This document shows positions 39,565-64,000 of a DNA stretch of 64,000 nucleotides, one piece after another. A program made the position numbers and the translations under genes. Position 1 is the first letter of the stretch. Each line of letters begins with the position of its first letter. The DNA comes from Deltaproteobacteria bacterium (GTDB lineage: Bacteria > Bdellovibrionota_F > JAHFAK01): contig JAHFAK010000001.1 in assembly GCA_023250585.1 (NCBI GenBank), positions 232 through 64,231 of the forward strand, written 5' to 3'. Under the pieces are notes generated by a model, which worked only from the letters and a program-made list of their open reading frames with translations, did not search any database and had not been told where the DNA came from.

Positions 39565-39576
39565 GAAAAACTCCTA

Positions 39577-41863: not shown

Positions 41864-41869
41864 ATAATA

Positions 41870-42823: not shown

Positions 42824-42877
42824 AAATTTTTATAATTGTTTCCTACAAGAAGTATGTTCGTGAATATTTAACTCATT

Positions 42878-45168: not shown

Positions 45169-45204
45169 AAGTTTGATATCTTCCCTAGATAATTTATATC
45201 AGGA

Positions 45205-47136: not shown

Positions 47137-47163
47137 ATAAGTGCTTCATGTTTCTATTCCATC

Positions 47164-48516: not shown

Positions 48517-48522
48517 ATAAAA

Positions 48523-50772: not shown

Positions 50773-52001
50773 ACACGTTCCTTTCTTAATACGACCTGGT
50801 TTTTACCAAGGCAATTCCAAATATCAATGACAAGGGCTTCTGGTTTAAGAGCTTTCCAAATGATATTACTGTTACTAAATTCCTTATGATTAACTGCTAC
50901 AAAAACAATATCCGTTCCTTGCAACGCTTCTGAAATATTTCGGTTAGCATATCGTTCGATCACCTGTGTTTTGAGATTTGGTTCACAAAGAACAATTTCA
51001 TGAGGAACTTTTCTCTCAATATAGCGAATAAGCTTTGGAACAAGACTATCACGTGTATCGTCTGAATCTCTCTTGAAGGTATACCCAAGAACTGCAACCT
51101 TTGCTCCTTTAATCTCAGCATGGCGAGCGGCAAGTTCTATAAGATGATAAGGCATAAATTCATTAATTTTCCATGAAGCAAGTAAAAGATCCGAACCCGG
51201 AGAAAGTTCGTTAATCATACCAAAGTCTTTACGAAGACATGTCCCCGCGGTAAGCCCTGGCCGATAAATAAAACCACGAGGATAATCTTCATTTGCAAGT
51301 CTTAAAATATCATAAATGTTTTGATCGAACTCATTTGCATAAATCGCAAATTGGTTTGCAACTGCAAATTCAATATACCTCGCAGAATTGTTGAAGAGCT
51401 TAACTAATTCAGCAGAAATATAGGTGGTTTTAAACATTTTAACATTAAAGGGAGCGAATATCTCTATTGCTTTTTCATAGCTTAATTCATCTTCACAGCC
51501 AATTATTTGAGGAAGCGTTTTCAATTCTGCCAAAGCTTTGTGCTCTGCCAAACGCTCTGGACAAAATGCAAGCGCTATATTTTTTCCTATACGAAATGAT
51601 GAATGTTCTTCCAAAAAACTTTTCACATATTCAGTTGTACGTGGAGCTACAGTAGAACGTAAAAAAATTGATTGTCCTTTCTGCATGTGAGGAATTAAAG
51701 ATTTTATGACTGCTTCAACGTTTGAAAGATCAGTTTCAATATGAGGCATTAAAGGAGTTCCCACTGTAATAAAGATATAATCGACATTTTTTATTATACT
51801 AATATCATCGGTAAATTGAATCCGTGAATGGGTTAAAAGATCTTGGCAGCCTGGTTCTTCAAAGGGCATAATACGATCTCTTAAAATTTTCAAAAGGGCT
51901 ATGTCTTTATCAATTCCCGTTACAGAAAATCCCAAGGACTCAAGAAAAAGCCCAAAAGGAAGACCCACCCTCCCCGTTCCAATGATTGCTATTTTTTTCA
52001 T
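50769..52001 (-). CDS. UDP-glucose / UDP-N-acetyl-hexosamine 6-dehydrogenase family enzyme
   Basis: MKKIAIIGTGRVGLPFGL Rossmann. Catalytic-Cys block GFIYRPGLTAGTCLRKD. 410 aa. Confidence 0.85.
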   Translation of the reverse strand: MKKIAIIGTGRVGLPFGLFLESLGFSVTGIDKDIALLKILRDRIMPFEEPGCQDLLTHSRIQFTDDISIIKNVDYIFITVGTPLMPHIETDLSNVEAVIKSLIPHMQKGQSIFLRSTVAPRTTEYVKSFLEEHSSFRIGKNIALAFCPERLAEHKALAELKTLPQIIGCEDELSYEKAIEIFAPFNVKMFKTTYISAELVKLFNNSARYIEFAVANQFAIYANEFDQNIYDILRLANEDYPRGFIYRPGLTAGTCLRKDFGMINELSPGSDLLLASWKINEFMPYHLIELAARHAEIKGAKVAVLGYTFKRDSDDTRDSLVPKLIRYIERKVPHEIVLCEPNLKTQVIERYANRNISEALQGTDIVFVAVNHKEFSNSNIIWKALKPEALVIDIWNCLGKNQVVLRKERV

Positions 52002-52010
52002 TTATTCTCC

Positions 52011-52997
52011 TTAATCTAAGGTATGTAAAGCAACTGACTGAACCATTAAAGTTACAAGTTCATCGAATTTTATTGTATGCTTCCATCCAAGCTTTCTATA
52101 TGCTTTATCTGCATTACCAATGAGTTGTGCTTGCCCAACAGAGGTGTAACTGGGTTCAAGCCGAATATAATTTTTCCAGCCTGTAATATTGACTGCTTGA
52201 AAAGCAAGTCGAAGAAAGTCTTCTACCGTGTGTGTAACTCCTGTTGAAAGAATATAATCATCTGGACTATCTGCTTGTGCCATAAGCCACATACCATAGG
52301 CATAATCTTTGGCATATCCCCAATCTTTTTGAGAATCCATATTGCCTAAAACGATTTCCTTTTTTTGTTTTTCTTTTATAAGCACTACTTGTTCTGCTAT
52401 TTTTTGCGTAACAAATGAAGACCCTCTCCGTGGAGATTCATGATTGTAAAGAATTACTGTTGAAAAATGCATATTTTCTGTGTCTCTATAAAAACGTGCA
52501 AGTTCTGCAGCAGCAATCTTTGATAAACCATACAAAGAATTACTTTGATATGGTGTGAGTTCGGTTTGTGGCGACTGAGACGTTCCATCAAACATAAGAC
52601 ATGACCCTGCCAAAACAAGACGAGTTTTTGGAGAGACTTCATTAATTCCATGAATCAAATGAGAAGCAGAACGAATATTATTCTCATATAAGGTACATGC
52701 GATTTTTTTCCGTTCTCCTTGTGATGTTGACGATGAATAATGAGTAGCGGCCAGATGGTAACATTCATCGGGTTTTAATTCAGCAAGTAATTTTACAACA
52801 TCTCTATATTCATTGAGATCAATCTCATGAGTATGAATCTTAATTTCTTTACCAAAAAGATATTGGGCAATCCGTTTGGTATTTTGCGATAAAGGCTTAC
52901 GAATAATGCCATGTACTTCATAGCCTTTGTTGTAAAGAATCTCTGTAAGATAACTTCCATCTTGACCAAAAATACCAGTTACTACTGCTTTTTTCAT
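52011..52997 (-). CDS. GDP-mannose 4,6-dehydratase-like NDP-hexose 4,6-dehydratase
   Basis: KKAVVTGIFGQDGSYLTEILYNKGYEVHGIIR closely matches the Gmd hallmark ITGxxGQDGSYLxExLLxKGYEVHG. Confidence 0.75.
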   Translation of the reverse strand: MKKAVVTGIFGQDGSYLTEILYNKGYEVHGIIRKPLSQNTKRIAQYLFGKEIKIHTHEIDLNEYRDVVKLLAELKPDECYHLAATHYSSSTSQGERKKIACTLYENNIRSASHLIHGINEVSPKTRLVLAGSCLMFDGTSQSPQTELTPYQSNSLYGLSKIAAAELARFYRDTENMHFSTVILYNHESPRRGSSFVTQKIAEQVVLIKEKQKKEIVLGNMDSQKDWGYAKDYAYGMWLMAQADSPDDYILSTGVTHTVEDFLRLAFQAVNITGWKNYIRLEPSYTSVGQAQLIGNADKAYRKLGWKHTIKFDELVTLMVQSVALHTLD

Positions 52998-52998
52998 T

Positions 52999-54279
52999 TT
53001 ATTTCTTTAGTATTGAACTATCGAGACAATGAACTTGAGGCATTGGAACAATAAACTTTCCACCTTCTTTAAGGAATTGAAATTCTCTCTTAATCATTTC
53101 ATCCATAAAGAAGTATGGCAGAACGAGAAAATAATCAGGTTTCTTCATACGAGCTTCTTCTTCTGAAATAATAGGAATGTTCGAACCAACCGTCCAGCAG
53201 CCAGCTTTATGAGAGTTACGATCAGCAGCGTATGGAATATCATGAACGGTTAAACTACAATACTGAAGTATAACATTTCCTTTACTTGAAGCACCATATA
53301 CAAAAGTTTTTTTACCTTTTTTATTTTCAGTTCTAATAAACGTTGTCAGTTTATCGCGAATTCGTTCCGAATTTTCACGGAATTTTTTATAGGGTTCTTC
53401 TTCGTCTAATTTTAGTTTTTTTTCTTCATTAAAAAAAGTATTGAGACGAACGTTTGCTTCCGCTGAAGGTTCAGAGCCCTCTTTTTTACGAAGATAAAAT
53501 CGGTAGCTACTACCATTTACTGTATTTTTTTCCATATCTACAATTTTTAATCCATGACGTTCAACAAGATAACGAAAAGGTCGGATATGATAGTATTCCA
53601 AATGTTCATGAAAAATTTGATCGAACATATTTTGTTCTAGCATCTCAGGAAGGTCAGCCATTTGAACCACCCACACTCCATCGGTATGCAAAATTGAAGC
53701 AATATCAGAAACAAAAGTATTCGGATCATCTAAATCATAAAACATTGCGATACTTGTAATAACTTTTGCTTTTTTTGTAGGACACGCCTTTTCAAATGAT
53801 CTTCTATTAAAAAAATCCACAACTCGTCTGAAATTTTCTTTCTCACCTCGTATATTTTCAACAGGATCAAATCCTATTCGATCGATAAAATTCTGTGTAT
53901 AACTATTTAAAAGTGTCCCATCGTTACAGCCAATATCAACTACCGTATCACCAGGAATAAGGTCCACAAAATGCCCCGCGCCCTCAATAACATCTTTGAG
54001 AGCATCACGCATCGTCTGATTTATACCCGAACGATACCAATATTCTCGGTAGATAAGATCTCCTGGAAACGTATGACGAAGCTGAACAAGCCCACACGCA
54101 TTCTTATTTTTTGCAGGATTACAGCGAACAACTTCAATTGGCACTGCTTGAGAAGGATAACGATCCTGATTCTCATGACTAACGGTGACTGAGGCTAACA
54201 GCTGACTTCCCAAGTTGATTACTGGAGTTAACTCTTTTGATCCGCAAATCCGACACGAATCAATTGCTTTAATATTCAT
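52999..54279 (-). CDS. NDP-hexose C-methyltransferase (TylCIII-like: Zn-ribbon + class I MT + C-terminal C-methyltransferase domain)
   Basis: N-terminal CRICGSKEL...zinc knuckle, MT motif VVDIGCNDGTLL, about 426 aa, as in sugar C3-methyltransferases. Confidence 0.65.
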   Translation of the reverse strand: MNIKAIDSCRICGSKELTPVINLGSQLLASVTVSHENQDRYPSQAVPIEVVRCNPAKNKNACGLVQLRHTFPGDLIYREYWYRSGINQTMRDALKDVIEGAGHFVDLIPGDTVVDIGCNDGTLLNSYTQNFIDRIGFDPVENIRGEKENFRRVVDFFNRRSFEKACPTKKAKVITSIAMFYDLDDPNTFVSDIASILHTDGVWVVQMADLPEMLEQNMFDQIFHEHLEYYHIRPFRYLVERHGLKIVDMEKNTVNGSSYRFYLRKKEGSEPSAEANVRLNTFFNEEKKLKLDEEEPYKKFRENSERIRDKLTTFIRTENKKGKKTFVYGASSKGNVILQYCSLTVHDIPYAADRNSHKAGCWTVGSNIPIISEEEARMKKPDYFLVLPYFFMDEMIKREFQFLKEGGKFIVPMPQVHCLDSSILKK

Positions 54280-55807
54280 AAACCTCCTTAATAAGTTTTG
54301 CTAATCGCACTGATGAACTCACATTTTGTACAAGCCCCGCATGACGGCAATAGAGAACTTGCTTATTTTTCAATTCAGTACGTATATTTTGATCTTCGAG
54401 CAATAAACGAATAGTAGGAATAAGTTTTTCTTTCTTTCTTACTGCCATCGCAGCCTCAAGAGTTGCATAATCCACAAGATCCTCTCTGTTTGTCAAATTA
54501 ATAAAGATTAGAGGTTTCTCAAGTAAAATTGTTTCTAAGCCTGCAGTAGAATGTAACGTAATAACAACATCGGCTGCATTTAAAATTTCTCTTAAAGTTT
54601 TCTTTTGATCAATTAATATTTGTTTATTCTGATTAAGAAAGGATTGATGGACAGAATGATCTTCTTCCGGATGAAATCGTACAAACAATTTTATATCCTG
54701 TATCTTTTTTGGCACTTCATATACCGCTTGAAGGACATTCAGATATTCTGTATGAGTAATATATGATTCTAAAGAACCAATGCCTTCTGGGGCCAAAGGA
54801 ATTGACAAAAAAACGACTAATGGAGTTTGATCAGAAAGACCTAGTTCTTGTCGTATTTTTTTGCGTCCTTCTTCATCATCTTGTTTATATTGATCAAAAC
54901 GTGGATTCCCCGTAACAAAAATTTTATCTTTGGAAATTCCATGCTTTTCGATGATTTCTGCTGACTGCGTGTCAAATGCTGCCACATAATCATGAGCTAG
55001 AAACCTCCATTCACTGTCAGCAGCACAAACACTTCCATACTGAAGACACAGAGAAGGAATTCCAAAAGAACGCCCAATGAGCGCAAAACTTTTTGCCTCA
55101 AAATCTGCGGGATCTGTTGTCACAATTATTGAAGGCTTTGTTTGGCTCAACATGATATCGGCAAGGAGAAGAGATCGTACACAATGGACTGCTTTTTTTC
55201 TAAACCATGCTTCAAAACCTGACCAAATACGTCCATTGAGTTGCAGACGCGCTTTTCGTTTCCAATAACTCATTAACTGCCGTGTTTCTTTTATTAGTCG
55301 TTTTATGTAGGTAACATCTCGAAGCGTAGTCCAATCACTATAATAAGCATTCTGATGAAGAACTTGAGCGTCTTTGGGTAAGGCTGCTTTACTTACGATA
55401 CCGATTTTTAATTTTTCAGATTTCAACAATTCACGGATTACGGGAGCTATACTTTCATGCTGCCGGCTAACGTTACAAACAAAAAGGATGTTAGTCTGTA
55501 ACGATGAATGCTTATGTTCTATACTTTTAGCTGCTAATGCTACTTCACGAATAAACCACATGAGATTGAACAAAAAATATTTTGAAGACGATTCTACATT
55601 CCTACCTAACGCTTCTTCTTTTAATACTTTTCGAAGATAATATATGACGAGAGAAGATGCCCCTGCTTCAAAGACCGTTGTTCCTTGAATATGAGGCGCA
55701 ACGGTATCATTTTTAATTGTATCAAGAAAAGTAAGCATTACATCCTCTGCTTTTCGAGAAAAATCAAACTCAGAAAGAGCATCTTTTATACTAGTCATTG
55801 TAGGCAT
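54269..55807 (-). CDS. hypothetical GT-B-like protein, possibly a CDP-alcohol glycerophosphotransferase (TagB/TagF-like) or capsule KpsC/KpsS-like transferase
   Basis: C-terminal half has KLFVRFHPEE (K-x-HP as in Glyphos_transf) and ITLHSTAGLETILLEKPLI. Weak. Confidence 0.35.
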   Translation of the reverse strand: MPTMTSIKDALSEFDFSRKAEDVMLTFLDTIKNDTVAPHIQGTTVFEAGASSLVIYYLRKVLKEEALGRNVESSSKYFLFNLMWFIREVALAAKSIEHKHSSLQTNILFVCNVSRQHESIAPVIRELLKSEKLKIGIVSKAALPKDAQVLHQNAYYSDWTTLRDVTYIKRLIKETRQLMSYWKRKARLQLNGRIWSGFEAWFRKKAVHCVRSLLLADIMLSQTKPSIIVTTDPADFEAKSFALIGRSFGIPSLCLQYGSVCAADSEWRFLAHDYVAAFDTQSAEIIEKHGISKDKIFVTGNPRFDQYKQDDEEGRKKIRQELGLSDQTPLVVFLSIPLAPEGIGSLESYITHTEYLNVLQAVYEVPKKIQDIKLFVRFHPEEDHSVHQSFLNQNKQILIDQKKTLREILNAADVVITLHSTAGLETILLEKPLIFINLTNREDLVDYATLEAAMAVRKKEKLIPTIRLLLEDQNIRTELKNKQVLYCRHAGLVQNVSSSVRLAKLIKEVYEY

Positions 55808-55812
55808 CTCAA

Positions 55813-57366
55813 TTATTGTTTAGGTAAATACAACTGAAGGCTTTTCATAAAATCACCAGTAGAAATTTCTTCTTTCAATTCATAATTGCGAGTAATTGAT
55901 TCCATCAAAGTTGGAATATAAGGAGCTATTACTTTTGACATGTTCTTTTGTGCAAAAAACCTTCCTTCTTCAAGAACAATGATGGAATATTTTTTAGCTT
56001 CAATATTATTTTTCAAAATTTTTTCGTTTGCCAAATGATGTGTTTCAACAAATGTTTCATCTAAGCTGGGTTTGAACGCATACATCTCCATATTAAGCCG
56101 TGGTTCATTAATTATTGTTTCATTTGCTAAAACTGGAGTAAATGAAAGCATAACTCCTCTTTGGTTGTGTGTATATGAATTAATTTTTGCCCCAACTTTT
56201 CTAATAATTGCAAGGTCAGATTGAAAATAATTAGTTTTTAAAAACTCTCCTGTTGAAGCAAGAGGCGCTCCTAAAAATAGTAAAAAAAACAATATAAAAA
56301 CATTTGGCGTCCGTGGTCCGGATTGATCCATTAATTTATTAATTAAAGCTAAACATAAAATCATGATAAATGGGAAAGTATAGAGTTTTGTTGGCGGATA
56401 ATCAGCTATAGTTTGATAATAAAATGAAAAACTGAGTAAAATCATTATAGAAACATAAGAAAATGCTACGGTATGCTCAGAAGATAATTTTTTTTCGTAA
56501 TTCTCTTTATTTTTTTTGTCTTTCAGCCAGGAAAAAGCGAGATATCCCATAGAAAAAAAGGCCAAAATATTATAAGGATACAAACTGTCAAACTCTTCGA
56601 ATCTTAGATTCAAGAAAGTACGTACTATCGATGAAAGGTTCTTGTTATCTATTTTTACTGAAGACTGATCAATATTAAATCGAATAGTATCGAAGAAAAT
56701 ATTTATATCTCCAAAAAAAATTGAATACTTAAAAATATAACAAAGCCCAATAAACGTTGCTGCAAAAATTGCGCCAAGAATGGCAAAATCCTTTCGAAAT
56801 TTAATACAAAGAATTATAACGAGACCGAGAATAAACATAGTCTGATAATCAACAAGATAACGATTTGAAATAAGGAAAAAATTAATCAGAAGAAACCAAA
56901 ATACTTTCCAATGTTTTTGCCAGGAGCTGAGAAGAACTAATAATGAAAGAGTTCTCAATAAAGCATTCAAAGAATATGTTGTATTTGTTAAAAAACTATA
57001 TAATCCCATCGGAATTAAAAATGAAGTATAACTGAGTATAATCGACTGAATATTGCTAAATAATTTATATACAACAAGAGCCTGAATATTGATGAGTAAA
57101 ATAAAAAATACTAATGAAATAATTCTTCCTGTTAAAAAAGAAGCCCCAAAAATTTTAAATAAAGTTCCATAGAGCTCAATATGTAATGGCAATCGATGAT
57201 AGAAAAAATCGATATAGGGATACATTCCTTTGGAAAATAGCAATGCTCCATGATAATACCAATTTTCATCGTTCCAAAATCGACAATGATAGATCCAGAA
57301 AAAACCAAACAATATAAAAAATAAATTAATCCCTAGAAAAAGAAAAACTTTTGACTGTTTTATCAT
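55813..57366 (-). CDS. large polytopic membrane protein of unknown function (possible GT-C/O-antigen polymerase-like)
   Basis: 517 aa, at least 11 TM helices, soluble C-terminal about 120-aa domain. No motif recognised. Confidence 0.4.
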   Translation of the reverse strand: MIKQSKVFLFLGINLFFILFGFFWIYHCRFWNDENWYYHGALLFSKGMYPYIDFFYHRLPLHIELYGTLFKIFGASFLTGRIISLVFFILLINIQALVVYKLFSNIQSIILSYTSFLIPMGLYSFLTNTTYSLNALLRTLSLLVLLSSWQKHWKVFWFLLINFFLISNRYLVDYQTMFILGLVIILCIKFRKDFAILGAIFAATFIGLCYIFKYSIFFGDINIFFDTIRFNIDQSSVKIDNKNLSSIVRTFLNLRFEEFDSLYPYNILAFFSMGYLAFSWLKDKKNKENYEKKLSSEHTVAFSYVSIMILLSFSFYYQTIADYPPTKLYTFPFIMILCLALINKLMDQSGPRTPNVFILFFLLFLGAPLASTGEFLKTNYFQSDLAIIRKVGAKINSYTHNQRGVMLSFTPVLANETIINEPRLNMEMYAFKPSLDETFVETHHLANEKILKNNIEAKKYSIIVLEEGRFFAQKNMSKVIAPYIPTLMESITRNYELKEEISTGDFMKSLQLYLPKQ

Positions 57367-57986
57367 AGAATAAATTGAATAGAAACGATTTGCGTTTCCA
57401 GATATTTTTCGGGCATTTCTTGAAAAATCTCAATGTTTGCAGATTCTTGTAATTCATGCTCAATCTTCTTAATTTCATCTTGTGCTAAATAAAGCAAAAG
57501 ACGCCCCGTTTTTTTAAGATATTGTGGAGATTGCTTAATAAATAAAAGAATCAATGAAAGCCTTTCTTGTCCAAAGAATAATTTTACAAATGGAATTGCC
57601 ATTCCCACGAGCAGCGGATGTCTTCTTACAAAACTACCTATATGATTTATAAAGGCATTATTCGGAATTCTTGGTGGATTGAAAACAATAAGATCATAAG
57701 TCGCTTTTACATGATCAAAGAGAGAAGAGTAATAGATATTCAAAGCTATACCATTTCTTTGAGCATTCTCTCTTGTATTTTTGAGAGCCTTTTCATTCAC
57801 ATCAACAGCATCTACATCAAAACCAAGCTTTGCAAGATAAATCGCAATATAGCCTGTGCCTGTCCCCATATCAAGAGCTTTCCCACGTGGAAACAGAGAA
57901 GCTGTTTTAGCTAACAGAAAAGTATCTTCTGCCGGTTGGCAGACTCCGGGAAATTCTATAATTTTAATTTCATCTTTGATCGACAT
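57363..57986 (-). CDS. class I SAM-dependent methyltransferase (small-domain / HemK-like, NPP motif)
   Basis: KALDMGTGTGYIAIYLAKLG (motif I) and LIVFNPPR (motif IV (D/N)PP) typical of N-methyltransferases. Confidence 0.65.
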   Translation of the reverse strand: MSIKDEIKIIEFPGVCQPAEDTFLLAKTASLFPRGKALDMGTGTGYIAIYLAKLGFDVDAVDVNEKALKNTRENAQRNGIALNIYYSSLFDHVKATYDLIVFNPPRIPNNAFINHIGSFVRRHPLLVGMAIPFVKLFFGQERLSLILLFIKQSPQYLKKTGRLLLYLAQDEIKKIEHELQESANIEIFQEMPEKYLETQIVSIQFIL

Positions 57987-57991
57987 ACATC

Positions 57992-58837
57992 TTAAATGAG
58001 CGTTACATTAAATTTTCGTACAACGTCTAATGTCTCCTTAGCCGTTATAGCGCGAAGTTCTTCCTCTCGCATGTCGGTCCAAAAATCATACTCTTTAAGA
58101 TCATTATCAACATATCCGGGATGGCAGACTATTTCAGAAACACCTTGAGGGATATTTTTTATATAATGATACAGCGCTTCTTTATAGTATCCCTTAGGAA
58201 CATAGCCCACACCAAAGACATGCCCCGCGTTATTCAAATTACTCATAGGACGCTGTAATGGAGATGCAATTTTAGAAAGAATCAACTGTTTCACAAATCC
58301 AATATATATTCCTTTTCGAAACAGAATTTGTTTTTTATAGAATGATCCTCTCCATAATCCTAAAGAAACACTTCGGATTCTACGGATTCCAAACCGCGAA
58401 GAAAGTCCCAAAAGCACTCGTCCAATTGCAGGATGAAAATGAATATGCCGATGTGAATCTATATGTTCTAGATTAATTCCGCTTTCAATCACTCTTTCAA
58501 TTTGTGCACTGAATTCCTTCTCAACTTCTCTTAATGAAATACGTCCTAAGAAAAGTCGAGACATAAAACGAGAAAGCGAATAAAAAGTATTATTCTTATC
58601 AAGAAGGCTTGAGATTTCTCTAGGAGAAGATAGAGAGCTCCCACACGTAATATTTAAATGAAGACCTACCGATAAATCAGGTTCCTTCTTGAGCAGTTGT
58701 ACACTTTTCTCAAAGCCTGGTATATTAGACATCAATGAAGTACTTCTCACAATTCCATTGCGAAAACATTCAATGATACCTGCGTTAATTCCCTCAGAAA
58801 TACCAAAATCATCTGCGTTTACAATGAGTTTTTTCAT
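57992..58837 (-). CDS. YdjC/ChbG-family carbohydrate deacetylase
   Basis: MKKLIVNADDFGISEGINAGIIECFRNGIVRSTSLM is nearly the family consensus. Downstream HLNIT and HID...H metal ligands. Confidence 0.75.
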   Translation of the reverse strand: MKKLIVNADDFGISEGINAGIIECFRNGIVRSTSLMSNIPGFEKSVQLLKKEPDLSVGLHLNITCGSSLSSPREISSLLDKNNTFYSLSRFMSRLFLGRISLREVEKEFSAQIERVIESGINLEHIDSHRHIHFHPAIGRVLLGLSSRFGIRRIRSVSLGLWRGSFYKKQILFRKGIYIGFVKQLILSKIASPLQRPMSNLNNAGHVFGVGYVPKGYYKEALYHYIKNIPQGVSEIVCHPGYVDNDLKEYDFWTDMREEELRAITAKETLDVVRKFNVTLI

Positions 58838-59580
58838 TTATAATAACCCTGATGATCGTTTCGTTTAACTTTCCAAAGATCTCGCAACATTCTGACTGTA
58901 TCTTGAAAAAAATTCACTGTTGATTTTTCATGAAAATAACGAAATCGTATGGGGACTTGATGAATAATAAATCCTAATTTTTTTGCAACGTACAAAGCTT
59001 CAACGTCGAAACTAAATCTCTCCAACGTTTGTTTTGTAAAAATAGCCTGTGCTGCTTCCTTTCGGAAACCTTTCAATCCCGCTTGTGTATCAAGCAATTC
59101 GGGTAAAAGCCACAGCCGCACTAATAGATTAAAAAAGCGGCCCATTAAATGTCTTGTATAGAGATAACGAAAGAAAACCGGACTGATTTCATAGCGAGAT
59201 TCCGGAAGTACACGGCATGCAATGGCAACATCTGCGCCCTTCTCTAACACCTCCAGAATTCTAAAAATTTGATCGGGCTGATATGCTAAATCTGAATCGT
59301 TAAAGACAAGATACCGTCCACGAGCTTCTCCAAATCCATGTCGAATTGCATATCCCTTACCACGATTTTTTCTGTTAGAAACAACTTTAATGTTTTGGTA
59401 CTTCTCTGTAATACGGTTCAATACAGAAAGAGAATTATCATAACTACCATCATCCACGAGAATCAATTCCCATGGATAATGCTGTTTTTCTAACTGTTCC
59501 ACTAATAAAGCAACATTTCCTTCAATAAACTCTGAAGCATTAAAAACTGGAACTACAACTGATAAGTGTATAGTACTCAT
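58834..59580 (-). CDS. GT2-family glycosyltransferase (small, DPM1/ArnC-like)
   Basis: LSVVVPVFNASEFIEGNVALL and LILVDDGSYDNS. Confidence 0.8.
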   Translation of the reverse strand: MSTIHLSVVVPVFNASEFIEGNVALLVEQLEKQHYPWELILVDDGSYDNSLSVLNRITEKYQNIKVVSNRKNRGKGYAIRHGFGEARGRYLVFNDSDLAYQPDQIFRILEVLEKGADVAIACRVLPESRYEISPVFFRYLYTRHLMGRFFNLLVRLWLLPELLDTQAGLKGFRKEAAQAIFTKQTLERFSFDVEALYVAKKLGFIIHQVPIRFRYFHEKSTVNFFQDTVRMLRDLWKVKRNDHQGYYK

Positions 59581-59590
59581 ACTAATCTAT

Positions 59591-60511
59591 CTAACTCCAA
59601 TCATGATCATTGTAAAAAGATCGAGAGATAGGCTCTACCTCACGTCGAATTCGGTCTATCTCAGCAGCAGTAAGTCTACTTTTCCAAATATCAACTGTTT
59701 TACGACTATCTCTTCTACTATTATCTTTTTTTCCATGAAATTCTACTACATTTAATGGAGAAGTATAAAGATTCATTATCTCTTCTGTTTTCTTTGTAAA
59801 TGATAGATTGAATTTCTCGTAAAGTTTTCTAAATTCCTCAATAGGTGCAGAGGCTAAATCCTCATGTCTAACAAAAATCCATTCAGGATGTTCCCTTGTA
59901 AGAATTTCAACCGTTCCATACAGAGCTTTCCATTGAAGAATTCCCATACCTATAATATCAGGTCTTTGAGGATGATTTTGAATTTCTTTCTCAAATCTAA
60001 ATAAATATCTTTTCATTAAATTTTTCTGATCAAGAAAATGATTAAAGTTAAATCCCCAATTAAGACGTTTTAAGCTACTTACGAAGGATGCTGGGTGTCT
60101 TATAACAACGATAACATGCGTATTAAATTTTTTAGCAAACCATTCGGTAGAAAAAAGACCAATAGGTTCGATAAAAATCTGCGGAAATCTAGAATTAAAC
60201 TGGCGAAACAGAGATCTAAATTTTCTTTTGGTTACACGTCCAAAATCTCGGAGTGATTCTATTTTGCTCAGGCTTTTAAAAAAATCATACTTCATATCCA
60301 CACACTTTTGGATATAGGGATAAAATTGCTTCTCGTTTTCCTGAGAGATATAGGTGTACATCCATGGAAAAGGTTGACATCCAATCTCTGAAGCAACATT
60401 AAAAATTTCCTCATCTCGCATAAGAAATTCTCCTGAGATAGAAAGCATTCTTCCAACCCAGCTTGAACCAGATCGATGTGATCCTGTAATGTAGATATGT
60501 TTTTTTATCAT
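59591..60511 (-). CDS. PAPS-dependent sulfotransferase, Stf0-like
   Basis: 5'-phosphosulfate-binding loop YITGSHRSGSSWVGRML (Mtb Stf0 ICSTQRSGSTWLCELL). 3'-phosphate-binding region VVIRHPASFVSSLKR. 306 aa. Confidence 0.75.
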   Translation of the reverse strand: MIKKHIYITGSHRSGSSWVGRMLSISGEFLMRDEEIFNVASEIGCQPFPWMYTYISQENEKQFYPYIQKCVDMKYDFFKSLSKIESLRDFGRVTKRKFRSLFRQFNSRFPQIFIEPIGLFSTEWFAKKFNTHVIVVIRHPASFVSSLKRLNWGFNFNHFLDQKNLMKRYLFRFEKEIQNHPQRPDIIGMGILQWKALYGTVEILTREHPEWIFVRHEDLASAPIEEFRKLYEKFNLSFTKKTEEIMNLYTSPLNVVEFHGKKDNSRRDSRKTVDIWKSRLTAAEIDRIRREVEPISRSFYNDHDWS

Positions 60512-60530
60512 TACAAAAAAGAGCCTTTGC

Positions 60531-62711
60531 TTATGCTACAAAAATTTCCTCTCCTCTCTCAATTTCCTCTAATAAAAAAGTTGATATCTCTTTTCTCATA
60601 AACCAATCAGGAAGCTCTTTTCCTGATTTGAGCATTTCACGCGCTTCACTGCCACTGATTAAACGCATATTTTTTTCATCATGATTACATTTTTCTACAT
60701 AGCGATTGCACTGCTGACAGTAAGAAATAGTGTCAAAAAATACAGGCGTTATTCCCAAATCCCCCATACTCTTAAATAGTTCTTGAGAAGCATGAGTACC
60801 ATAGAAATTACCAACGCCTGTATGATCTCTTCCCATAATAAAATGAGTACATCCAAAGTTTTTCCTACAAAGAGCAGTAAAAACAGCCTCACGTGGTCCC
60901 GCATATCGTGAATAGGTAGAAAATGCTCCGATCAATACTTTTTCTTTAGGGTAATAAGTATTAAGCAACTTCTCATAACTTTGTATAATAGCATGACTGA
61001 CAAAATCACCTTTCTTTTTGATACCTATTACTGGATGAACAAAAAGGCCATCGCATGAAGTACGTTCCAGCGCTAGAATTTGTAATGTTTCATGGGCTCT
61101 ATGAACAACATTTCTTGTATGGAAACCAACAACTCGGCTCCATCCTTTATGTTCAAAAAGGGCCCGCGTTTGCAAAGGAGTGAATTCATATTGTTTGTTC
61201 ATACGTGGAAGACGTTTTATCAATTCAACTTTTCCACCAATGAAATAATTGTCTTTTCCGAAGAGAGCTGCAACTCCTGGATGCGCTTTATCTTGTGTTC
61301 CAAACATCATTTGAGATAATTCCGTGAGGTCATAGGGGTAAATTTCCTCTATCTCAATCGTAGCAACAATATCCTGCGAGGATTGAAGAGCTAAACTCAC
61401 TATAGTTCCTTCATGAAATTTTGTTGCTTCTTCTTTACTCACTTGCAATAAAATAGGAAGAGGCCATGCAACCCCGTTAGAAAGTTTATAATCATGCAAA
61501 ACACTCGTAAGTTCTTCTCGATTCATAAAACCTTGTAATGGCGAAAAAGAACCAAGAGCAATTTGCTCTGCATCCATCAGTATTTTTTCGTCAACAATTA
61601 AGCGTGGGTACTGATTAAGCAGAGTTTTATCACACTCTTGAGCAATACGATACGTAAGTATTCCTCCATGTGGCTTGATCAAAAATCGAGAATGATCATC
61701 CAGAAGTTTTCCAAAGGAAACTTTTCGATTGGAGCTCTCAAATTCATTTATAAGAGAAACAACAACCGCTGCACAATCAACGGGATGTTGACCAATAGCA
61801 GTTTCAGCAGCGAGGACTAAACCGTCAGCTCCATCAAGTAAAGTATTGATAACATCGTTAACTTCTGCTCGTGTTGGTTTCCTCTTTTGTGTCATAGACT
61901 CTAATAAGTTTGTAGCTACATAAATCGGTTTACCAGCAGAATTTGCTCGTTGAATAAGAAGCTTCTGAAGAAAAGGAATTTTTTCGATGGGAACTTCGCG
62001 AGAGAGATCTCCTCTATCGATGAGGAGCGCGTCAGCAAGCGTCACAATAGCATCAACATTTTTTACACCCTGCCTGCTTTCAATTTTTGCAATAATTCTG
62101 GCCTGTGCACCAACGAGTTCTCTCATTTCCGAAACAGCTTCTTTACTCGATGCAAAGGAAAGAGCAAAATTGGTTATGCCATATTTTTTGGATAACGTCA
62201 TGACTTCTTTGTCTTTTTTAGAAAGAACAGGAAGCATAATATCTTGATCAACAGTAACTGCTTTATTACTTCCGACAATACCTCCGCAAAGCACTCGTGC
62301 TTTTAATGAACCACCATTTTTTTCAATGACCTGTAAAAAGAGAGAATTAAAATCAACATTAATGAGACTACCTATTTCTATTTTTTCTACTACAAATCCT
62401 GGAGTAAGTGAAATAGTATGTTCATCACAAATGATATTTTCACTTACAATATCAACTATATCTCCTTCTTTTAGATAAATTTCTCCGCCTTTTACACTTC
62501 TATTCCTAATTTGAGCTCCTTCGGTATCAATACATATTGGTTTTTTCGTGTATTGACCAATGGTCTGCATCATTTTTTCAGCTACATTGATATCAACATG
62601 TGAAAGATTAATACGAAAGAGATCTACTCCAAGCGCGTCTAAACGTTGAATAACAATTTTATCCAACGAAGCAGGCCCAATAGTTGCTAATATTTGAAGT
62701 TTTTTTATCAT
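60531..62711 (-). CDS. fusion protein: pyruvate-kinase catalytic (A+B) domain lacking the C-terminal allosteric domain + complete ATP sulfurylase (sulfate adenylyltransferase)
   Basis: Start refined to MIKKLQ (ATGA overlap with the upstream SDR). PK blocks: ATIGPAS, FRINLSH, IDTEGAQIR, IIAKIESRQG, LLIDRGDLSREVP, KPIYVATNLLESMTQKRKPTRAEVNDVINTLLDGADGLVLAAETAIGQHP. ATP sulfurylase blocks: FHTRNVVHRAHE, GRDHTGVG. Confidence 0.85.
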   Translation of the reverse strand: MIKKLQILATIGPASLDKIVIQRLDALGVDLFRINLSHVDINVAEKMMQTIGQYTKKPICIDTEGAQIRNRSVKGGEIYLKEGDIVDIVSENIICDEHTISLTPGFVVEKIEIGSLINVDFNSLFLQVIEKNGGSLKARVLCGGIVGSNKAVTVDQDIMLPVLSKKDKEVMTLSKKYGITNFALSFASSKEAVSEMRELVGAQARIIAKIESRQGVKNVDAIVTLADALLIDRGDLSREVPIEKIPFLQKLLIQRANSAGKPIYVATNLLESMTQKRKPTRAEVNDVINTLLDGADGLVLAAETAIGQHPVDCAAVVVSLINEFESSNRKVSFGKLLDDHSRFLIKPHGGILTYRIAQECDKTLLNQYPRLIVDEKILMDAEQIALGSFSPLQGFMNREELTSVLHDYKLSNGVAWPLPILLQVSKEEATKFHEGTIVSLALQSSQDIVATIEIEEIYPYDLTELSQMMFGTQDKAHPGVAALFGKDNYFIGGKVELIKRLPRMNKQYEFTPLQTRALFEHKGWSRVVGFHTRNVVHRAHETLQILALERTSCDGLFVHPVIGIKKKGDFVSHAIIQSYEKLLNTYYPKEKVLIGAFSTYSRYAGPREAVFTALCRKNFGCTHFIMGRDHTGVGNFYGTHASQELFKSMGDLGITPVFFDTISYCQQCNRYVEKCNHDEKNMRLISGSEAREMLKSGKELPDWFMRKEISTFLLEEIERGEEIFVA

Positions 62712-63490
62712 ATAATACTCCATCCTCCATCTACAACTAAATTATGTCCCGTAACATAGGCTGAGGCATCCGAAGCTAAGAAAATTGCTGCACCTACTAT
62801 TTCTTCTGCAGATGCCATTCGTTGTAACGGTGTTTTTTTAATATAATTTTTTACGAAACTTTGAGGTTGTGAATCAAAAATTCCACCAGGAGAAATTGCA
62901 TTTACTCTCACTCCATGGTTACCGTAATATGATGCTAAATATTTTGTAAATTGGATAACACCCCCTTTGATTGCGGCATACGCAGCTGGCATAGTCATAT
63001 CTGTTCCTTCATAGATTGAAAAATCAGGGGCAACAATTCCATAAATTGAAGCAATATTTATAATAGATCCTTTTTTTGCTTCTTTCATTATTTCGGTAAC
63101 TTTTTGGCAGCAGAGGCAATACCCATTTAAATGTTTATTGATATTCTCTTGCCACGAATTAAACGGAATTTTTTCAAATGATACTCCCCAATCTTTTGTC
63201 CGAGGATATGCATTATTTATCCATACATCAATTCGTCCTTCTTCTTTGAGAATTTGTGTTACTCCGTTAATAACAGATTTTTCATCGGCAATATCTAATA
63301 AAAGAAAGCGTGCAGTATAGCCATCTTTTTTTAATTCTTCACAAGCTCTTATCCCCTTTTCTTCATCGATCTCTGCGATGATCACTTGTGCTCCATACGA
63401 AGCAAATCCTCGGGCAAATGCTTTTCCCAAAAGGCCTCCCCCTCCAGTTATGACAGTTACCTTATGAGTTAAATCAAATAAATTTTTCAT
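62708..63490 (-). CDS. short-chain dehydrogenase/reductase (classical SDR)
   Basis: KVTVITGGGGLLGKAFA, NNAYP, YAAIKGG (YxxxK). Confidence 0.85.
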   Translation of the reverse strand: MKNLFDLTHKVTVITGGGGLLGKAFARGFASYGAQVIIAEIDEEKGIRACEELKKDGYTARFLLLDIADEKSVINGVTQILKEEGRIDVWINNAYPRTKDWGVSFEKIPFNSWQENINKHLNGYCLCCQKVTEIMKEAKKGSIINIASIYGIVAPDFSIYEGTDMTMPAAYAAIKGGVIQFTKYLASYYGNHGVRVNAISPGGIFDSQPQSFVKNYIKKTPLQRMASAEEIVGAAIFLASDASAYVTGHNLVVDGGWSII

Positions 63491-64000
63491 AGAGTTGTGT
63501 ATCCTTTCTCGATCAAAAATTCGACAAAGTGAAAATCAATCTCACGGTCTATATCAAAACCTGAAACATCCGGCATACAATACACAATTGAATTATCGGT
63601 GATGACCGATGTATTTTCTTTGAGAAAAAAATTCCGGGAATAAAAATAAATCGAGGCGTTCATATCATAAACTTTCGGAGCATCTTGCCTTCGATGAGTA
63701 GCATGCGTTAATGACTTTGAAAGATGCGCTCGTCCGTTTCGATCAAGTTCTACCATATTAAAATATGGATTTTTATGAGAAGGTACAACGCTAAATAAAT
63801 TTTCAGGTTTTTCTTTAAGAAATAACTGATAACAATTTTCCAAATCCTTTGTAGTTCTTAAAGGAGACGTAGCATCGAGATCAACGACTATATCGTACTT
63901 CTCATTAAATATTTTTTCGGATTCTAATACTGCATGATGAATGACGGCTAATTTATCCGCAGTATCACTTGCCAAATCTTTCGGACGCTCGAAAGGCACT
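63487..64000 (-). CDS. CMP-sugar (acylneuraminate/Kdo-type) cytidylyltransferase, C-terminal part; gene start lies beyond window end
   Basis: VVDLDATSPLRTTKDLENCYQLF and the later dimerisation region resemble the NeuA/KdsB CTP_transf_3 family. The N-terminal P-loop-like block is absent, so the ORF is truncated by the window. Confidence 0.55.
   Translation of the reverse strand, partial: VPFERPKDLASDTADKLAVIHHAVLESEKIFNEKYDIVVDLDATSPLRTTKDLENCYQLFLKEKPENLFSVVPSHKNPYFNMVELDRNGRAHLSKSLTHATHRRQDAPKVYDMNASIYFYSRNFFLKENTSVITDNSIVYCMPDVSGFDIDREIDFHFVEFLIEKGYTTL

What the first reader, a model, noticed from the sequence alone, without database searches (positions are those of the whole stretch)
60531..62711. 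Pyruvate-kinase catalytic domain fused in frame to a full ATP sulfurylase
The first ~330 residues carry every conserved pyruvate-kinase A/B-domain block, including the catalytic Lys, the Glu/Asp metal ligands and the KPTRAE-DV-N--LDG loop. The PK C-terminal allosteric domain is absent. The remaining ~390 residues are a complete ATP sulfurylase with HRAH and GRDH motifs. I do not recognise this architecture. Sulfate adenylylation is strongly endergonic and is normally pulled by APS kinase, pyrophosphatase or a GTPase. A fused PEP-dependent kinase domain could regenerate ATP at the active site, channel phosphoryl transfer, or the domain may have been recruited for a different PEP-dependent chemistry. 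The same locus also encodes a conventional ATP sulfurylase-APS kinase fusion (5114..6859), so the two are unlikely to be redundant.
Basis: seen in the sequence. Interest (0 to 1): 0.8.

Follow-up and report, generated by a model that had tools for sequence, protein, structure and literature searches.

The report
Pyruvate kinase fused to ATP sulfurylase
This gene really does join a regulatory-domain-less pyruvate kinase to a complete ATP sulfurylase, and it belongs to a widespread, undescribed family from uncultured bacteria that sits beside APS kinases and sulfotransferases, most likely a sulfate-activating enzyme with built-in PEP-driven ATP recycling.

Summary
On the minus strand, 60531..62711 encodes a 726-aa protein (730 aa from an upstream ATG). 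It contains a pyruvate-kinase A/B barrel without the C domain, then a PUA-like domain, then an ATP-sulfurylase catalytic domain. It is not an assembly artefact: more than 120 protein clusters and at least 549 metagenomic stretches show the same architecture, and the catalytic residues of both halves are near-invariant.

The PK half belongs to a distinct clade. The canonical catalytic residues are kept, but the surrounding active-site shell is altered (DTEGAQIR, IDRGDLSRE, ATNLLESM, LAAETA). The clade occurs alone, fused to ATPS, fused to APS kinase, or fused to both. Its neighbours are APS kinase (fused or adjacent in about 60% of well-flanked loci), sulfotransferases and sometimes CysQ–APSK fusions, all inside glycan clusters.

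Best reading: a PAPS-supply module in which the PK half uses PEP to convert the ADP released by APS kinase back into ATP. This is inferred, not shown. PK cannot pull the sulfurylase step itself, because that step releases PPi.

Unexplained features: an invariant HTRN/GRDHTG sulfate pocket, and stand-alone PK-clade genes that sit beside sulfotransferases with no ATPS or APSK nearby.

No paper describing this was found.

The parts
60531..62711 (-). CDS of the PK-ATP sulfurylase fusion (726 aa; an alternative upstream ATG at 62723 gives 730 aa; residue numbers below use the 730-aa frame)
   Evidence: ORF; start context GGAG-N6-ATG and ATGA overlap; three Pfam domains; more than 120 full-length homologue clusters
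61776..62705 (-). Pyruvate-kinase A/B domain (aa 7-316). Holds R37, N39, S41, H42, D66, T67, R73, K154, K213, E215, D239, T271 and E307. Clade-specific residues are E68, A70, Q71, D236, S241, R242, N272, L273, A305 and A306
   Evidence: PF00224 E 1.4e-69; alignments to 2e28, 6du6 and PykF; conservation
62229..62516 (-). PK B-domain (beta-barrel lid, about aa 70-165) inserted in the barrel, with the nucleotide-phosphate Lys154
   Evidence: All-beta segment in the AF2 model; aligned to the PK B domain
61680..61775 (-). Linker (aa 317-348) that replaces the PK C-terminal allosteric domain: last PK helix, then a lower-confidence stretch
   Evidence: No PK C-domain family among the Pfam matches; pLDDT 69-85 here against more than 90 on either side
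61212..61679 (-). PUA-like N-terminal domain of ATP sulfurylase (aa 349-504)
   Evidence: PF14306 E 8e-42; aligned to 8a8d and 1v47
60567..61193 (-). ATP-sulfurylase catalytic domain (aa 511-719)
   Evidence: PF01747 E 3e-78; NF003166 419 bits (cut-off 387) and TIGR00339 345 bits (cut-off 323)
61092..61121 (-). H535-T-R-N-V-V-H541-R-A-H544: the QxRN/HxxH block, with His in place of the sulfate-contacting Gln (invariant in the family)
   Evidence: role of Gln195 from PMC6607087
60816..60833 (-). G631-R-D-H-T-G636 motif (canonical GRDHAG; Thr replaces the Ala whose backbone lines the sulfate pocket)
60681..60719 (-). C669-x2-C672 ... C679-x-H681, aligned with the Cys/His cluster of the short Thermus/Methanothermococcus-type ATP sulfurylases (probable Zn site)
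   Evidence: Alignment to 8a8d and 1v47; at least 90% conserved. The Zn assignment is from recalled knowledge
59591..60511 (-). Sulfotransferase, 19 nt downstream in the same operon. It is the likely consumer of the PAPS and carries the PAPS 5'-PSB (GSHRSGSSW) and 3'-PB (R138...S146) motifs
   Evidence: PF13469/PF00685; gap; R138 and S146 near-invariant in 55 neighbour sulfotransferases. It is the only sulfotransferase in the window
5114..6859 (-). Conventional bifunctional Sat-CysC (FQTRN type). It holds the only APS-kinase domain in the window and is the presumed source of the ADP that the PK half would recycle
   Evidence: NF004040 843 bits; only APSK hit in the window; 35% identical to the fusion's ATPS half
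62708..63490 (-). PtmA-like SDR, translationally coupled upstream (ATGA overlap). Part of the nonulosonic-acid block (cytidylyltransferase, TauE, GFO_IDH_MocA, NeuB, PglD-like) that continues beyond the window

Best explanation
The gene encodes a genuine two-enzyme polypeptide: a pyruvate kinase without its allosteric C domain, fused to a short (Thermus/Methanothermococcus-type) ATP sulfurylase. It serves as the sulfate-activation unit of a glycan-sulfation operon.

Proposed mechanism:
(1) The sulfurylase half makes APS + PPi from ATP and sulfate.
(2) An APS kinase converts APS + ATP to PAPS + ADP. Here the only candidate is the CysC domain of the Sat-CysC gene at 5114..6859. In relatives it is the next gene or a third fused domain.
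(3) The PK half uses PEP to turn that ADP back into ATP on the spot.
Net: sulfate + ATP + PEP -> PAPS + PPi + pyruvate.
(4) The adjacent PAPS-dependent sulfotransferase sulfates the glycan.

Removing ADP keeps ATP saturating. It also prevents the dead-end APS-kinase/ADP/APS complex that throttles PAPS synthesis. Losing the allosteric C domain would free this PK from glycolytic regulation.

Shown: the architecture, its conservation, intact catalytic residues and the genomic association. Inferred: both activities, the ADP-recycling role and any physical coupling.
For: The architecture is real and conserved: at least 549 confirmed stretches; confident fold of both halves.

Catalytic residues of both halves are invariant across 121 and 48 sequences, which argues for two active enzymes.

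Unbiased neighbour clustering over 92 loci puts APS kinase first (47 loci). Of 51 loci with at least 5 kb downstream or an APS-kinase domain fused in, the HMM-based recount finds 21 with APSK at +1/+2, 6 with it fused in-frame (PK-ATPS-APSK, 916-940 aa), 3 at -1/-2, 3 elsewhere and 18 with none.

Rosetta-stone evidence: the same PK clade is fused directly to APS kinase without any ATPS (P0353, P0361, P0136). APS kinase is the only ADP-producing step in the pathway. Seven of 8 partner kinases pass NCBI's apsK equivalog-domain cut-off.

Sulfotransferases verified by Pfam lie within +/-3 genes in 25 of 39 well-flanked loci, and 36 of 39 have APSK and/or a sulfotransferase. CysQ-APSK fusions next to the gene in 3 loci show that these operons bundle by-product removal.

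Biochemical rationale: in vitro PAPS synthesis almost fails without a PK/PEP system because of the APS-kinase/ADP/APS dead-end complex (PMC9885120).

In the window the gene is translationally coupled into the operon, with a PAPS-type sulfotransferase 19 nt downstream.
Against: No enzymology exists for any member.

The window's own fusion has no APS kinase within 10 kb. The nearest is about 54 kb away in the same cluster, and 18 of 51 well-flanked loci show none.

All four stand-alone PK-clade genes examined sit beside one to three sulfotransferases but have no ATPS or APSK within 6-7 kb. That is odd for a mere ADP recycler.

The clade has fixed substitutions around the active site (rabbit numbering, from memory: K114E, P116A, E117Q, A292D, G297S, I298R, Q328N, M329L, S361A, G362A). 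The sulfurylase has an altered sulfate pocket (Q->H, A->T). Either change could signal different substrates.

Fusion to ATPS rather than to APSK is the commonest form, yet ATPS produces no ADP. Cells normally have ample housekeeping PK.
Confidence: 0.55

Rival explanations
1. The PK-like clade performs a different, sulfation-specific reaction rather than plain ADP -> ATP. Examples: PEP-dependent phosphorylation of another adenine nucleotide in the PAPS/PAP cycle, or a sulfuryl/phosphoryl transfer involving an enolpyruvate intermediate. The fusion would then channel an intermediate between the two halves.
For: The most constant partner of the clade is a sulfotransferase, even where ATPS and APSK are absent. 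Ten clade-fixed substitutions lie in motifs that line the PK active site, while the core catalytic residues are kept. The partner sulfurylase also has a non-canonical sulfate pocket (HTRN, GRDHTG). From memory only: PK can transfer a sulfuryl group from sulfoenolpyruvate to ADP in vitro (Peliska and O'Leary 1989; not retrievable here).
Against: All residues that bind PEP, Mg2+, K+ and the ADP phosphates are conserved, which is the simplest signature of ordinary PK chemistry. No candidate alternative substrate is suggested by the neighbourhoods. The idea that PK replaces APS kinase is contradicted by the frequent adjacent or fused bona fide APSK. Several substitutions (A292D, I298R) may simply reflect loss of the allosteric tetramer.
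Confidence: 0.2
2. The PK half is mainly regulatory or structural. It would be a PEP/ADP-sensing or oligomerising module that tunes the sulfurylase to energy status, as the APS-kinase-like domain does in fungal ATP sulfurylase, and would carry little flux.
For: There is precedent for a degenerate enzyme domain acting as an allosteric regulator of ATPS (Penicillium; cited in PMC13213808). The PK domain sits where other sulfurylases carry accessory domains. pTM 0.79 is at least compatible with a fixed inter-domain packing.
Against: Every catalytic residue (K213, E215, D239, T271, R37, R73, K154 and the K+ ligands) is invariant or nearly so over hundreds of sequences at 40-58% identity. In the fungal regulatory domain the kinase activity is lost (stated in PMC13213808). 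The clade also exists as a stand-alone protein and fused to APSK alone, so it is not tied to regulating ATPS.
Confidence: 0.15
3. The sulfurylase half activates an anion other than sulfate (selenate, thiosulfate, molybdate, a phosphorus oxyanion) or runs mainly in reverse. The operon would then make a non-sulfate modification.
For: Both sulfate-contacting positions are changed family-wide (Q195->H, A293->T). One related locus (L014) also carries phosphoramidate-pathway-like genes, and its APSK-like kinase falls below the apsK cut-off.
Against: The protein passes the NCBI sulfate-adenylyltransferase thresholds. Its partners are bona fide APS kinases, CysQ-like phosphatases and PAPS-type sulfotransferases with the 3'-phosphate-binding motif. 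Sulfate or sulfite-type permeases recur nearby.
Confidence: 0.07
4. Assembly or sequencing artefact: two separate genes were joined by a frameshift or a missed stop.
For: The window comes from a metagenome assembly. One related locus (L101) does contain a frameshift, which splits a fusion rather than joining two genes.
Against: The same continuous ORF occurs in over 120 protein clusters at 49-58% identity from independent projects and in 92 of 95 fetched loci. The junction region is itself conserved.
Confidence: 0.01

Closest known systems
Bifunctional PAPS synthase / Sat-CysC (ATP sulfurylase-APS kinase fusions, e.g. Aquifex aeolicus 2gks, human PAPSS, and the window's own gene at 5114..6859)
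   Same: Homologous ATP-sulfurylase module (PUA-like plus catalytic domain, HxxH, GRDH). Same pathway and the same logic of fusing consecutive or supporting steps of sulfate activation. Relatives of the finding add the APS-kinase domain as well (916-940 aa triple fusions).
   Different: The window protein has no APS-kinase domain. It carries an N-terminal pyruvate-kinase barrel not reported in the PAPS-synthase arrangements reviewed here. Its sulfurylase has HTRN/GRDHTG instead of QTRN/GRDHAG and is only 35% identical to the co-resident Sat-CysC.
Stramenopile trifunctional APS kinase-ATP sulfurylase-pyrophosphatase (Bradley et al. 2009, as cited in PMC13213808)
   Same: A sulfate-activating enzyme fused to an enzyme whose job is to remove a by-product (PPi there, ADP here) and so pull an unfavourable pathway. 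It is the closest conceptual analogue.
   Different: The accessory domain is unrelated (pyrophosphatase versus pyruvate kinase), the by-product differs, and it is eukaryotic. The analogy is functional, not a homology of the extra domain.
Canonical pyruvate kinase (PykF/PykA, PKM; PF00224 + PF02887)
   Same: Same A-domain TIM barrel and B-domain lid, 36-40% identity. All residues known to bind PEP, Mg2+, K+ and the nucleotide phosphates are kept.
   Different: No C-terminal allosteric domain. Scores below the full-length equivalog cut-off (271 against 306 bits). Carries a ten-position clade signature in the active-site shell. Its genomic context is sulfation, not glycolysis.
Short ATP sulfurylases of Methanothermococcus thermolithotrophicus (8a8d) and Thermus thermophilus (1v47)
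   Same: Best structural and sequence match to the C-terminal half (E 1e-100; TM 0.93; 42% identity). Same domain pair and the same Cys/His cluster.
   Different: Those enzymes are stand-alone, have QTRN and GRDHAG, and serve assimilation rather than glycan sulfation.
Engineered PAPS-generation cascades (ATPS + APSK + pyrophosphatase + PK/PEP ATP regeneration)
   Same: Same set of activities. PK/PEP is added to recycle ADP and avoid APS-kinase inhibition (PMC9885120).
   Different: Those are man-made mixtures of separate enzymes. Here nature appears to have fused the PK to the pathway enzymes.

Membership tests
Pyruvate kinase (EC 2.7.1.40; PF00224, TIGR01064) | A-domain (beta/alpha)8 barrel with inserted B-domain | tested here: met
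   PF00224 aa 7-316, E 1.4e-69; model superposes on PKM2 at about 2.5 A over about 345 columns
Pyruvate kinase (EC 2.7.1.40; PF00224, TIGR01064) | Catalytic Lys, Mg2+ ligands Glu/Asp, Thr proton donor, K+ ligands, phosphate-binding Arg/Lys (rabbit K269, E271, D295, T327, N74, S76, D112, T113, R72, R119, K206; numbering recalled) | tested here: met
   K213, E215, D239, T271, N39, S41, D66, T67, R37, R73 and K154 are aligned to solved PKs and invariant or at least 90% conserved
Pyruvate kinase (EC 2.7.1.40; PF00224, TIGR01064) | C-terminal allosteric domain (PF02887) | tested here: not met
   No PK C-domain family among the Pfam matches; PK alignments end at query aa 320-330
Pyruvate kinase (EC 2.7.1.40; PF00224, TIGR01064) | Score above the curated full-length equivalog cut-off | tested here: not met
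   TIGR01064 270.8 bits against cut-off 306.4; all other PK models are also below their cut-offs
Pyruvate kinase (EC 2.7.1.40; PF00224, TIGR01064) | Canonical active-site shell motifs DTKGPEIR, MVARGDLG, ATQMLESM, MLSGETA | tested here: not met
   Reads DTEGAQIR, LIDRGDLS, ATNLLESM, VLAAETA. The pattern is fixed in the clade and absent from canonical PKs
Pyruvate kinase (EC 2.7.1.40; PF00224, TIGR01064) | PEP + ADP -> pyruvate + ATP activity | not testable with these tools
   Needs an enzyme assay
ATP sulfurylase / sulfate adenylyltransferase (Sat; PF14306 + PF01747, TIGR00339) | PUA-like domain plus catalytic nucleotidyltransferase domain, above curated cut-offs | tested here: met
   PF14306 8e-42 and PF01747 3e-78; NF003166 419.3 against 387; TIGR00339 344.9 against 322.95; TM 0.93 to 8a8d
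ATP sulfurylase / sulfate adenylyltransferase (Sat; PF14306 + PF01747, TIGR00339) | HxxH and GRD(H) motifs | tested here: met
   H541-R-A-H544 and G631-R-D-H634 are invariant
ATP sulfurylase / sulfate adenylyltransferase (Sat; PF14306 + PF01747, TIGR00339) | QxRN motif with the sulfate-contacting Gln, and Ala in VGRDHAG | tested here: not met
   H535-TRN and GRDH-T635-G are invariant in the family. The PDB enzymes and the window's Sat-CysC have Q and A
ATP sulfurylase / sulfate adenylyltransferase (Sat; PF14306 + PF01747, TIGR00339) | ATP + sulfate -> APS + PPi activity | not testable with these tools
   Needs an enzyme assay. The context (APSK, CysQ, PAPS-type sulfotransferases) is consistent with it
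PAPS synthase (ATPS + APS kinase in one polypeptide) | APS-kinase domain (PF01583/TIGR00455) in the same chain | tested here: not met
   Absent from the window protein. Present in related triple fusions L006, L008, L009, L064, L083, L085, P0208, P0228
Sulfation-associated PK-like clade (defined here) | C-domain-less PK with the signature E68, Q71, D236, S241, N272, A305 (at least 5 of 6) | tested here: met
   The window protein scores 6/6. More than 95% of 340+ clade members score at least 5, and canonical PKs score 0
Sulfation-associated PK-like clade (defined here) | Genomic linkage to APS kinase and/or a sulfotransferase | tested here: met
   In the window, a sulfotransferase lies 19 nt downstream. 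Family-wide, 36 of 39 well-flanked loci show the linkage, as do 4 of 4 stand-alone contexts

The most novel reading that the evidence does not exclude
The C-domain-less PK clade may not be an ordinary pyruvate kinase. It could be a dedicated sulfation enzyme with new chemistry, for example PEP-driven recycling of a PAPS-cycle nucleotide or a sulfuryl-group transfer. It would work together with a sulfurylase whose sulfate pocket has been remodelled (HTRN/GRDHTG). That would explain why the clade stays glued to sulfotransferases even where no ATPS or APS kinase is nearby, and why both active sites carry family-fixed substitutions.
Probability: 0.17. Interest if true: 0.85.

Novelty: new variant of a known kind. 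Interest (0 to 1): 0.62.

Why it matters
Sulfate activation is energetically awkward. The known natural solutions are coupling to GTP hydrolysis (CysDN), fusion to APS kinase, or fusion to pyrophosphatase. A widespread family that bolts a deregulated pyruvate kinase onto the pathway would be a fourth solution. It would also be a rare natural case of an ATP-regeneration module fused to a biosynthetic enzyme.

It also defines a previously unnoticed PK clade devoted to sulfation rather than glycolysis. That clade is a useful annotation marker for sulfated-glycan clusters in uncultured Omnitrophota, Deltaproteobacteria, Terriglobales and others, which are currently labelled only 'pyruvate kinase' or 'sulfate adenylyltransferase'.

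There is a practical side. PAPS supply limits enzymatic synthesis of heparin and chondroitin sulfate. The natural PK-ATPS-APSK triple fusions could be single-polypeptide PAPS generators that run on sulfate + PEP with catalytic nucleotide.

Tried and rejected
1. Frameshift or assembly artefact: rejected. The continuous ORF recurs in over 120 clusters and 92 of 95 loci.

2. Pseudo-enzyme scaffold: rejected as the main reading, because all catalytic residues are invariant.

3. PK half as a PEP-dependent replacement for APS kinase: considered because the window and 18 of 51 loci lack a nearby APSK. Disfavoured because bona fide APSK is adjacent or fused in most loci, and PK-APSK fusions would then be redundant.

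4. 'PK + PUA_2 only' proteins (P0348 and others) as a separate architecture: in L101 this is a frameshifted full PK-ATPS (tblastn continues in another frame), so the class is probably artefactual.

5. A second sulfotransferase at 1026..3152: this was a phmmer hit through TPR repeats only, and Pfam shows TPR alone. Three TPR/Wzy_C proteins in the sulfotransferase set were the same kind of drift.

6. L010 (Woesearchaeota PK-only hit): a 520-aa ORF, about the length of a canonical PK; not examined further.

7. Foldseek against AFDB50: the library was unavailable.

8. Literature searches for the fusion, for a PK-containing PAPS synthase and for sulfoenolpyruvate chemistry found nothing relevant. 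Searches for a structural description of the PK nucleotide site were unproductive, so residue roles in PK are given from memory.

10. The organism's taxonomy could not be determined. The contig is from an ENA metagenome assembly, and its nearest homologues are only 58% identical.
Full report
**Observation**

A single uninterrupted ORF lies on the minus strand at 60531..62723 (730 aa). It is preceded by GGAG at a 6-nt spacing and overlaps the stop codon of the upstream SDR gene in an ATGA. The family consensus also begins there. The 726-aa database protein P0001 is 100% identical over the 99% of the query it covers.

Pfam gives three strong, non-overlapping domains:
- PK barrel PF00224, aa 7-316, E 1.4e-69
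- PUA_2 PF14306, aa 349-504, E 8e-42
- ATP-sulfurylase PF01747, aa 511-719, E 3e-78

No PK C-terminal domain family appears among the matches. NCBIfam places the C-terminal half above the curated sulfate-adenylyltransferase cut-offs (419 against 387, and 345 against 323). The N-terminal half falls below the full-length pyruvate-kinase cut-off (271 against 306), as expected for a truncated PK.

No PDB chain matches both halves. Separately, the halves align end to end with PKs (2e28, PykF, PKM) and with the short ATP sulfurylases 8a8d and 1v47. An AlphaFold model built on a 48-sequence family alignment has pLDDT 90 and pTM 0.79. Its halves superpose on 8a8d (TM 0.93, 2.1 A) and on PKM2 (about 2.5 A over about 345 columns). 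The gene at 5114..6859 is a canonical Sat-CysC (NF004040, 843 bits).

**Not an artefact, and not rare**

The word-index search returned more than 120 clusters of full-length homologues at 49-58% identity, all with the same three Pfam domains. They come from NCBI, JGI, ENA and Logan assemblies, and the only names they carry are 'sulfate adenylyltransferase', 'ATP sulfurylase' or 'pyruvate kinase'. A genome scan found the fusion in MAGs labelled Deltaproteobacteria, Bacteriovoracaceae, Gammaproteobacteria and others. Of the 95 loci held at that point, 92 carry a continuous fusion ORF.

**Catalytic integrity and clade-specific changes**

Across 121 sequences and a curated set of 48, the PK residues are invariant or at least 90% conserved. 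They correspond, by my recalled rabbit-muscle numbering, to R72, N74, S76, H77, D112, T113, R119, K206, K269, E271, D295, T327 and E363. The ATPS HxxH, GRDH and Cys/His cluster are equally conserved. This argues against a dead scaffold.

The active-site shell nevertheless differs from canonical PKs in a fixed way:

| Canonical PK | This clade |
|---|---|
| DTKGPEIR | DTEGAQIR |
| VARGDLGVE | IDRGDLSRE |
| ATQMLESM | ATNLLESM |
| LSGETA | LAAETA |

In the sulfurylase, the QxRN motif is invariably HTRN and GRDHAG is GRDHTG. The window's Sat-CysC and all PDB enzymes keep Q and A. Gln195 and the Ala293 backbone contact the sulfate of APS (PMC6607087). The two sulfurylases in the window are only 35% identical, so they are different lineages and not recent duplicates.

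**A distinct PK clade with several architectures**

An exhaustive phmmer search of 1.84 billion representatives with the PK half, and a second search seeded with a stand-alone member, show that the nearest relatives are not glycolytic PKs. They form a clade with these forms:
- Stand-alone barrels of about 325-360 aa, some on contigs over 1 Mb
- PK-PUA_2-ATPS, the window type
- PK-ATPS-APSK triple fusions of 905-940 aa (P0208, P0215, P0228; L006, L008, L009, L064, L083, L085)
- PK-APSK fusions of about 505-518 aa (P0353, P0361, P0136)
- PK-PUA_2-APSK (P0384)

A six-position signature (E68, Q71, D236, S241, N272, A305) is present at 5/6 or better in more than 95% of members of every architecture. 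Canonical PKs in the same hit lists score 0. Nearest-neighbour analysis shows the stand-alone and fused forms mostly forming their own subclades, with some interleaving. The apparent 'PK-PUA_2 only' class is probably artefactual, because in L101 the rest of the sulfurylase continues in another frame.

**Genomic context**

In the window the gene sits in a unidirectional glycan cluster of about 60 kb at 35% GC. Upstream lie PglD-like, NeuB, GFO_IDH_MocA, TauE, cytidylyltransferase and PtmA-like SDR genes, which together look like a nonulosonic-acid block. Downstream lie a sulfotransferase (19-nt gap), GT2, YdjC, methyltransferases, a flippase and more.

I called ORFs in 92 loci, clustered the six genes on each side by all-against-all BLASTP, and ranked the clusters. 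APS kinase is first: 47 loci, always on the same strand, mostly at +1. An HMM-based recount then classified the 51 loci that have at least 5 kb downstream or carry a fused APS-kinase domain:

| Position of APS kinase | Loci (of 51) |
|---|---|
| +1 or +2 | 21 |
| Fused in frame | 6 |
| -1 or -2 | 3 |
| Elsewhere in the locus | 3 |
| None found | 18 |

- **Partner kinases.** Seven of 8 pass NCBI's apsK equivalog-domain cut-off. These include both PK-APSK fusions and both triple fusions tested.
- **Sulfotransferases.** I collected them by transitive phmmer closure and checked them with Pfam: 44 of 55 hit Sulfotransfer_1 and 43 of 55 hit Sulfotransfer_3, and three were TPR drift. They lie within +/-3 genes in 25 of 39 loci that have at least 5 kb on both sides. 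In 36 of those 39 loci there is an APSK and/or a sulfotransferase.
- **PAPS dependence.** The sulfotransferase alignment keeps the 3'-phosphate-binding Arg...Ser pair, so these enzymes should need PAPS rather than APS.
- **PAP phosphatase.** Three loci carry CysQ-like phosphatase fused to APS kinase, in both orders.
- **Transporters.** TauE, Na_H_Exchanger and PQ-loop transporters recur.
- **Stand-alone clade members.** All four examined are flanked by one to three sulfotransferases. Two also have SulP/STAS or TauE permeases, and none has an ATPS or APSK within 6-7 kb.
- **PK-APSK fusions.** Both share a different context (flippase, CDP-OH_P_transf, GT2) without a recognisable sulfotransferase.

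**Mechanism**

The sulfurylase step releases PPi, so a pyruvate kinase cannot pull it directly. The only ADP-producing step in PAPS synthesis is APS kinase. APS kinase is exactly the enzyme that is most often adjacent to this PK clade, fused behind it, or fused to it without any ATPS.

APS kinase is known to stall in a dead-end enzyme/ADP/APS complex. In vitro, PAPS synthesis by PAPSS1 almost fails unless a PK/PEP system removes ADP (PMC9885120).

I therefore infer that the PK half recycles ADP to ATP with PEP within a PAPS-supply module that feeds the adjacent sulfotransferase. Net: sulfate + ATP + PEP -> PAPS + PPi + pyruvate. Losing the allosteric C domain would uncouple this PK from glycolytic control. 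In the window, the CysC domain of the Sat-CysC gene, about 54 kb downstream in the same cluster, is the only candidate APS kinase.

These steps are inferred. None has been tested biochemically.

**What does not fit**

- Fusion to ATPS, which makes no ADP, is the commonest form.
- A third of well-flanked loci, and all four stand-alone contexts, lack a nearby APS kinase.
- Both active sites carry family-fixed substitutions at substrate-lining positions.

These points keep a non-canonical, sulfation-specific chemistry alive as a rival (about 0.2). A purely regulatory role is less likely given the invariance of the catalytic residues and the existence of stand-alone forms (about 0.15). An alternative anion for the sulfurylase is possible but is poorly supported by the partner enzymes (about 0.07).

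**Comparison with known systems and novelty**

The protein is a member of the ATP-sulfurylase family by domain content and curated scores, with an atypical QxRN. It contains a PK-family catalytic domain but fails the full-length PK definition. It is not a PAPS synthase in the strict sense, because it has no APSK domain, although its relatives are.

The closest functional analogue is the stramenopile APSK-ATPS-pyrophosphatase, where another by-product remover is fused to the pathway. A 2026 paper that lists known sulfate-activation arrangements does not mention any PK fusion (PMC13213808). Five full-text searches found no description of it (and 51 for sulfoenolpyruvate).

I rate it a new variant of a known kind: a sulfate-activating multienzyme with a new accessory domain, together with a previously unrecognised sulfation-linked PK clade. 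It is common in environmental sequence data but uncharacterised.

**Verdict**

Interest 0.62.

Noticed in passing
window 3188..64000 (all large ORFs on the minus strand except 11320..12615): The whole window is one unidirectional glycan-biosynthesis supercluster of about 60 kb at 35% GC. It includes a PglF-like dehydratase, Sat-CysC, methyltransferases, DegT, Bac_transf, a UDP-sugar dehydrogenase, GDP-mannose-dehydratase-like genes, a C-methyltransferase, a flippase, several GT2s, YdjC and a nonulosonic-acid block. Only one sulfotransferase is present.
   Followed up: partly
window 8743..10562 (-): A split transketolase pair (Transketolase_N; Transket_pyr + Transketolase_C) sits between a DegT aminotransferase and the Bac_transf initiating transferase. 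This suggests a two-carbon branch or keto-sugar modification of the glycan.
   Followed up: no
L014 2828..10756 (GCA_964421245): Next to a PK-ATPS fusion lies a set resembling the Campylobacter O-methyl-phosphoramidate pathway (recalled from memory): an 801-aa PPDK_N/PEP-utilizers protein, a Peptidase_C26/GATase, an NTP_transferase, and an APS-kinase-like protein that falls below the apsK cut-off (120 against 138.7 bits). Three sulfotransferases are also present. The cluster may encode both phosphoramidate and sulfate decoration.
   Followed up: partly
L100 6001..7539 and L104 2248..3765: PK-APS kinase fusions without ATPS share a conserved context (Polysacc_synt flippase upstream; CDP-OH_P_transf and GT2 downstream; CTP_transf_3, 2-Hacid_dh and HAD nearby in L100). 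No recognisable sulfotransferase lies within 6 kb, so what the PAPS or kinase product is used for there is unclear.
   Followed up: partly
L065 7516..8850, L051 13054..14376, L033 10787..12157: CysQ-like (Inositol_P) phosphatase fused to APS kinase, in both domain orders, next to PK-ATPS genes. This joins PAPS synthesis and PAP disposal in one polypeptide.
   Followed up: yes
L001 7777..8514 (just beyond the window's right end; corresponds to about window 64198..64935); also L047 1485..2237, L087 13778..15046, L071 10268..10561, L101 8187..9293: Transporters recur next to the fusion: TauE/SafE-family permease, Na_H_Exchanger-family protein and a roughly 95-aa PQ-loop protein. They may import sulfate for the module. 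Stand-alone PK-clade loci have SulP/STAS or TauE instead.
   Followed up: partly
window 55813..57366 (-), 48523..49455 (-), 13563..14486 (-), 11320..12615 (+): Four sizeable ORFs in the cluster have no Pfam match. The only plus-strand one (431 aa) interrupts the otherwise unidirectional cluster. Large proteins (620-715 aa) with no or only marginal Pfam matches also recur beside the fusion in L012, L014 (weak LIC12162) and L100.
   Followed up: no
L101 7024..8176: A frameshift splits an otherwise intact PK-ATPS gene in a 1.27-Mb contig, so it is either an assembly error or a pseudogene. The database therefore lists it as 'PK + PUA_2' (P0348). Other 430-540-aa 'PK+PUA_2' entries may have the same cause.
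   Followed up: yes
window 1026..3152 (+): A 708-aa protein whose Pfam matches are TPR-type repeats only, divergent from the cluster at its left edge. It produced a spurious sulfotransferase hit through TPR-sulfotransferase fusions found in other loci.
   Followed up: yes
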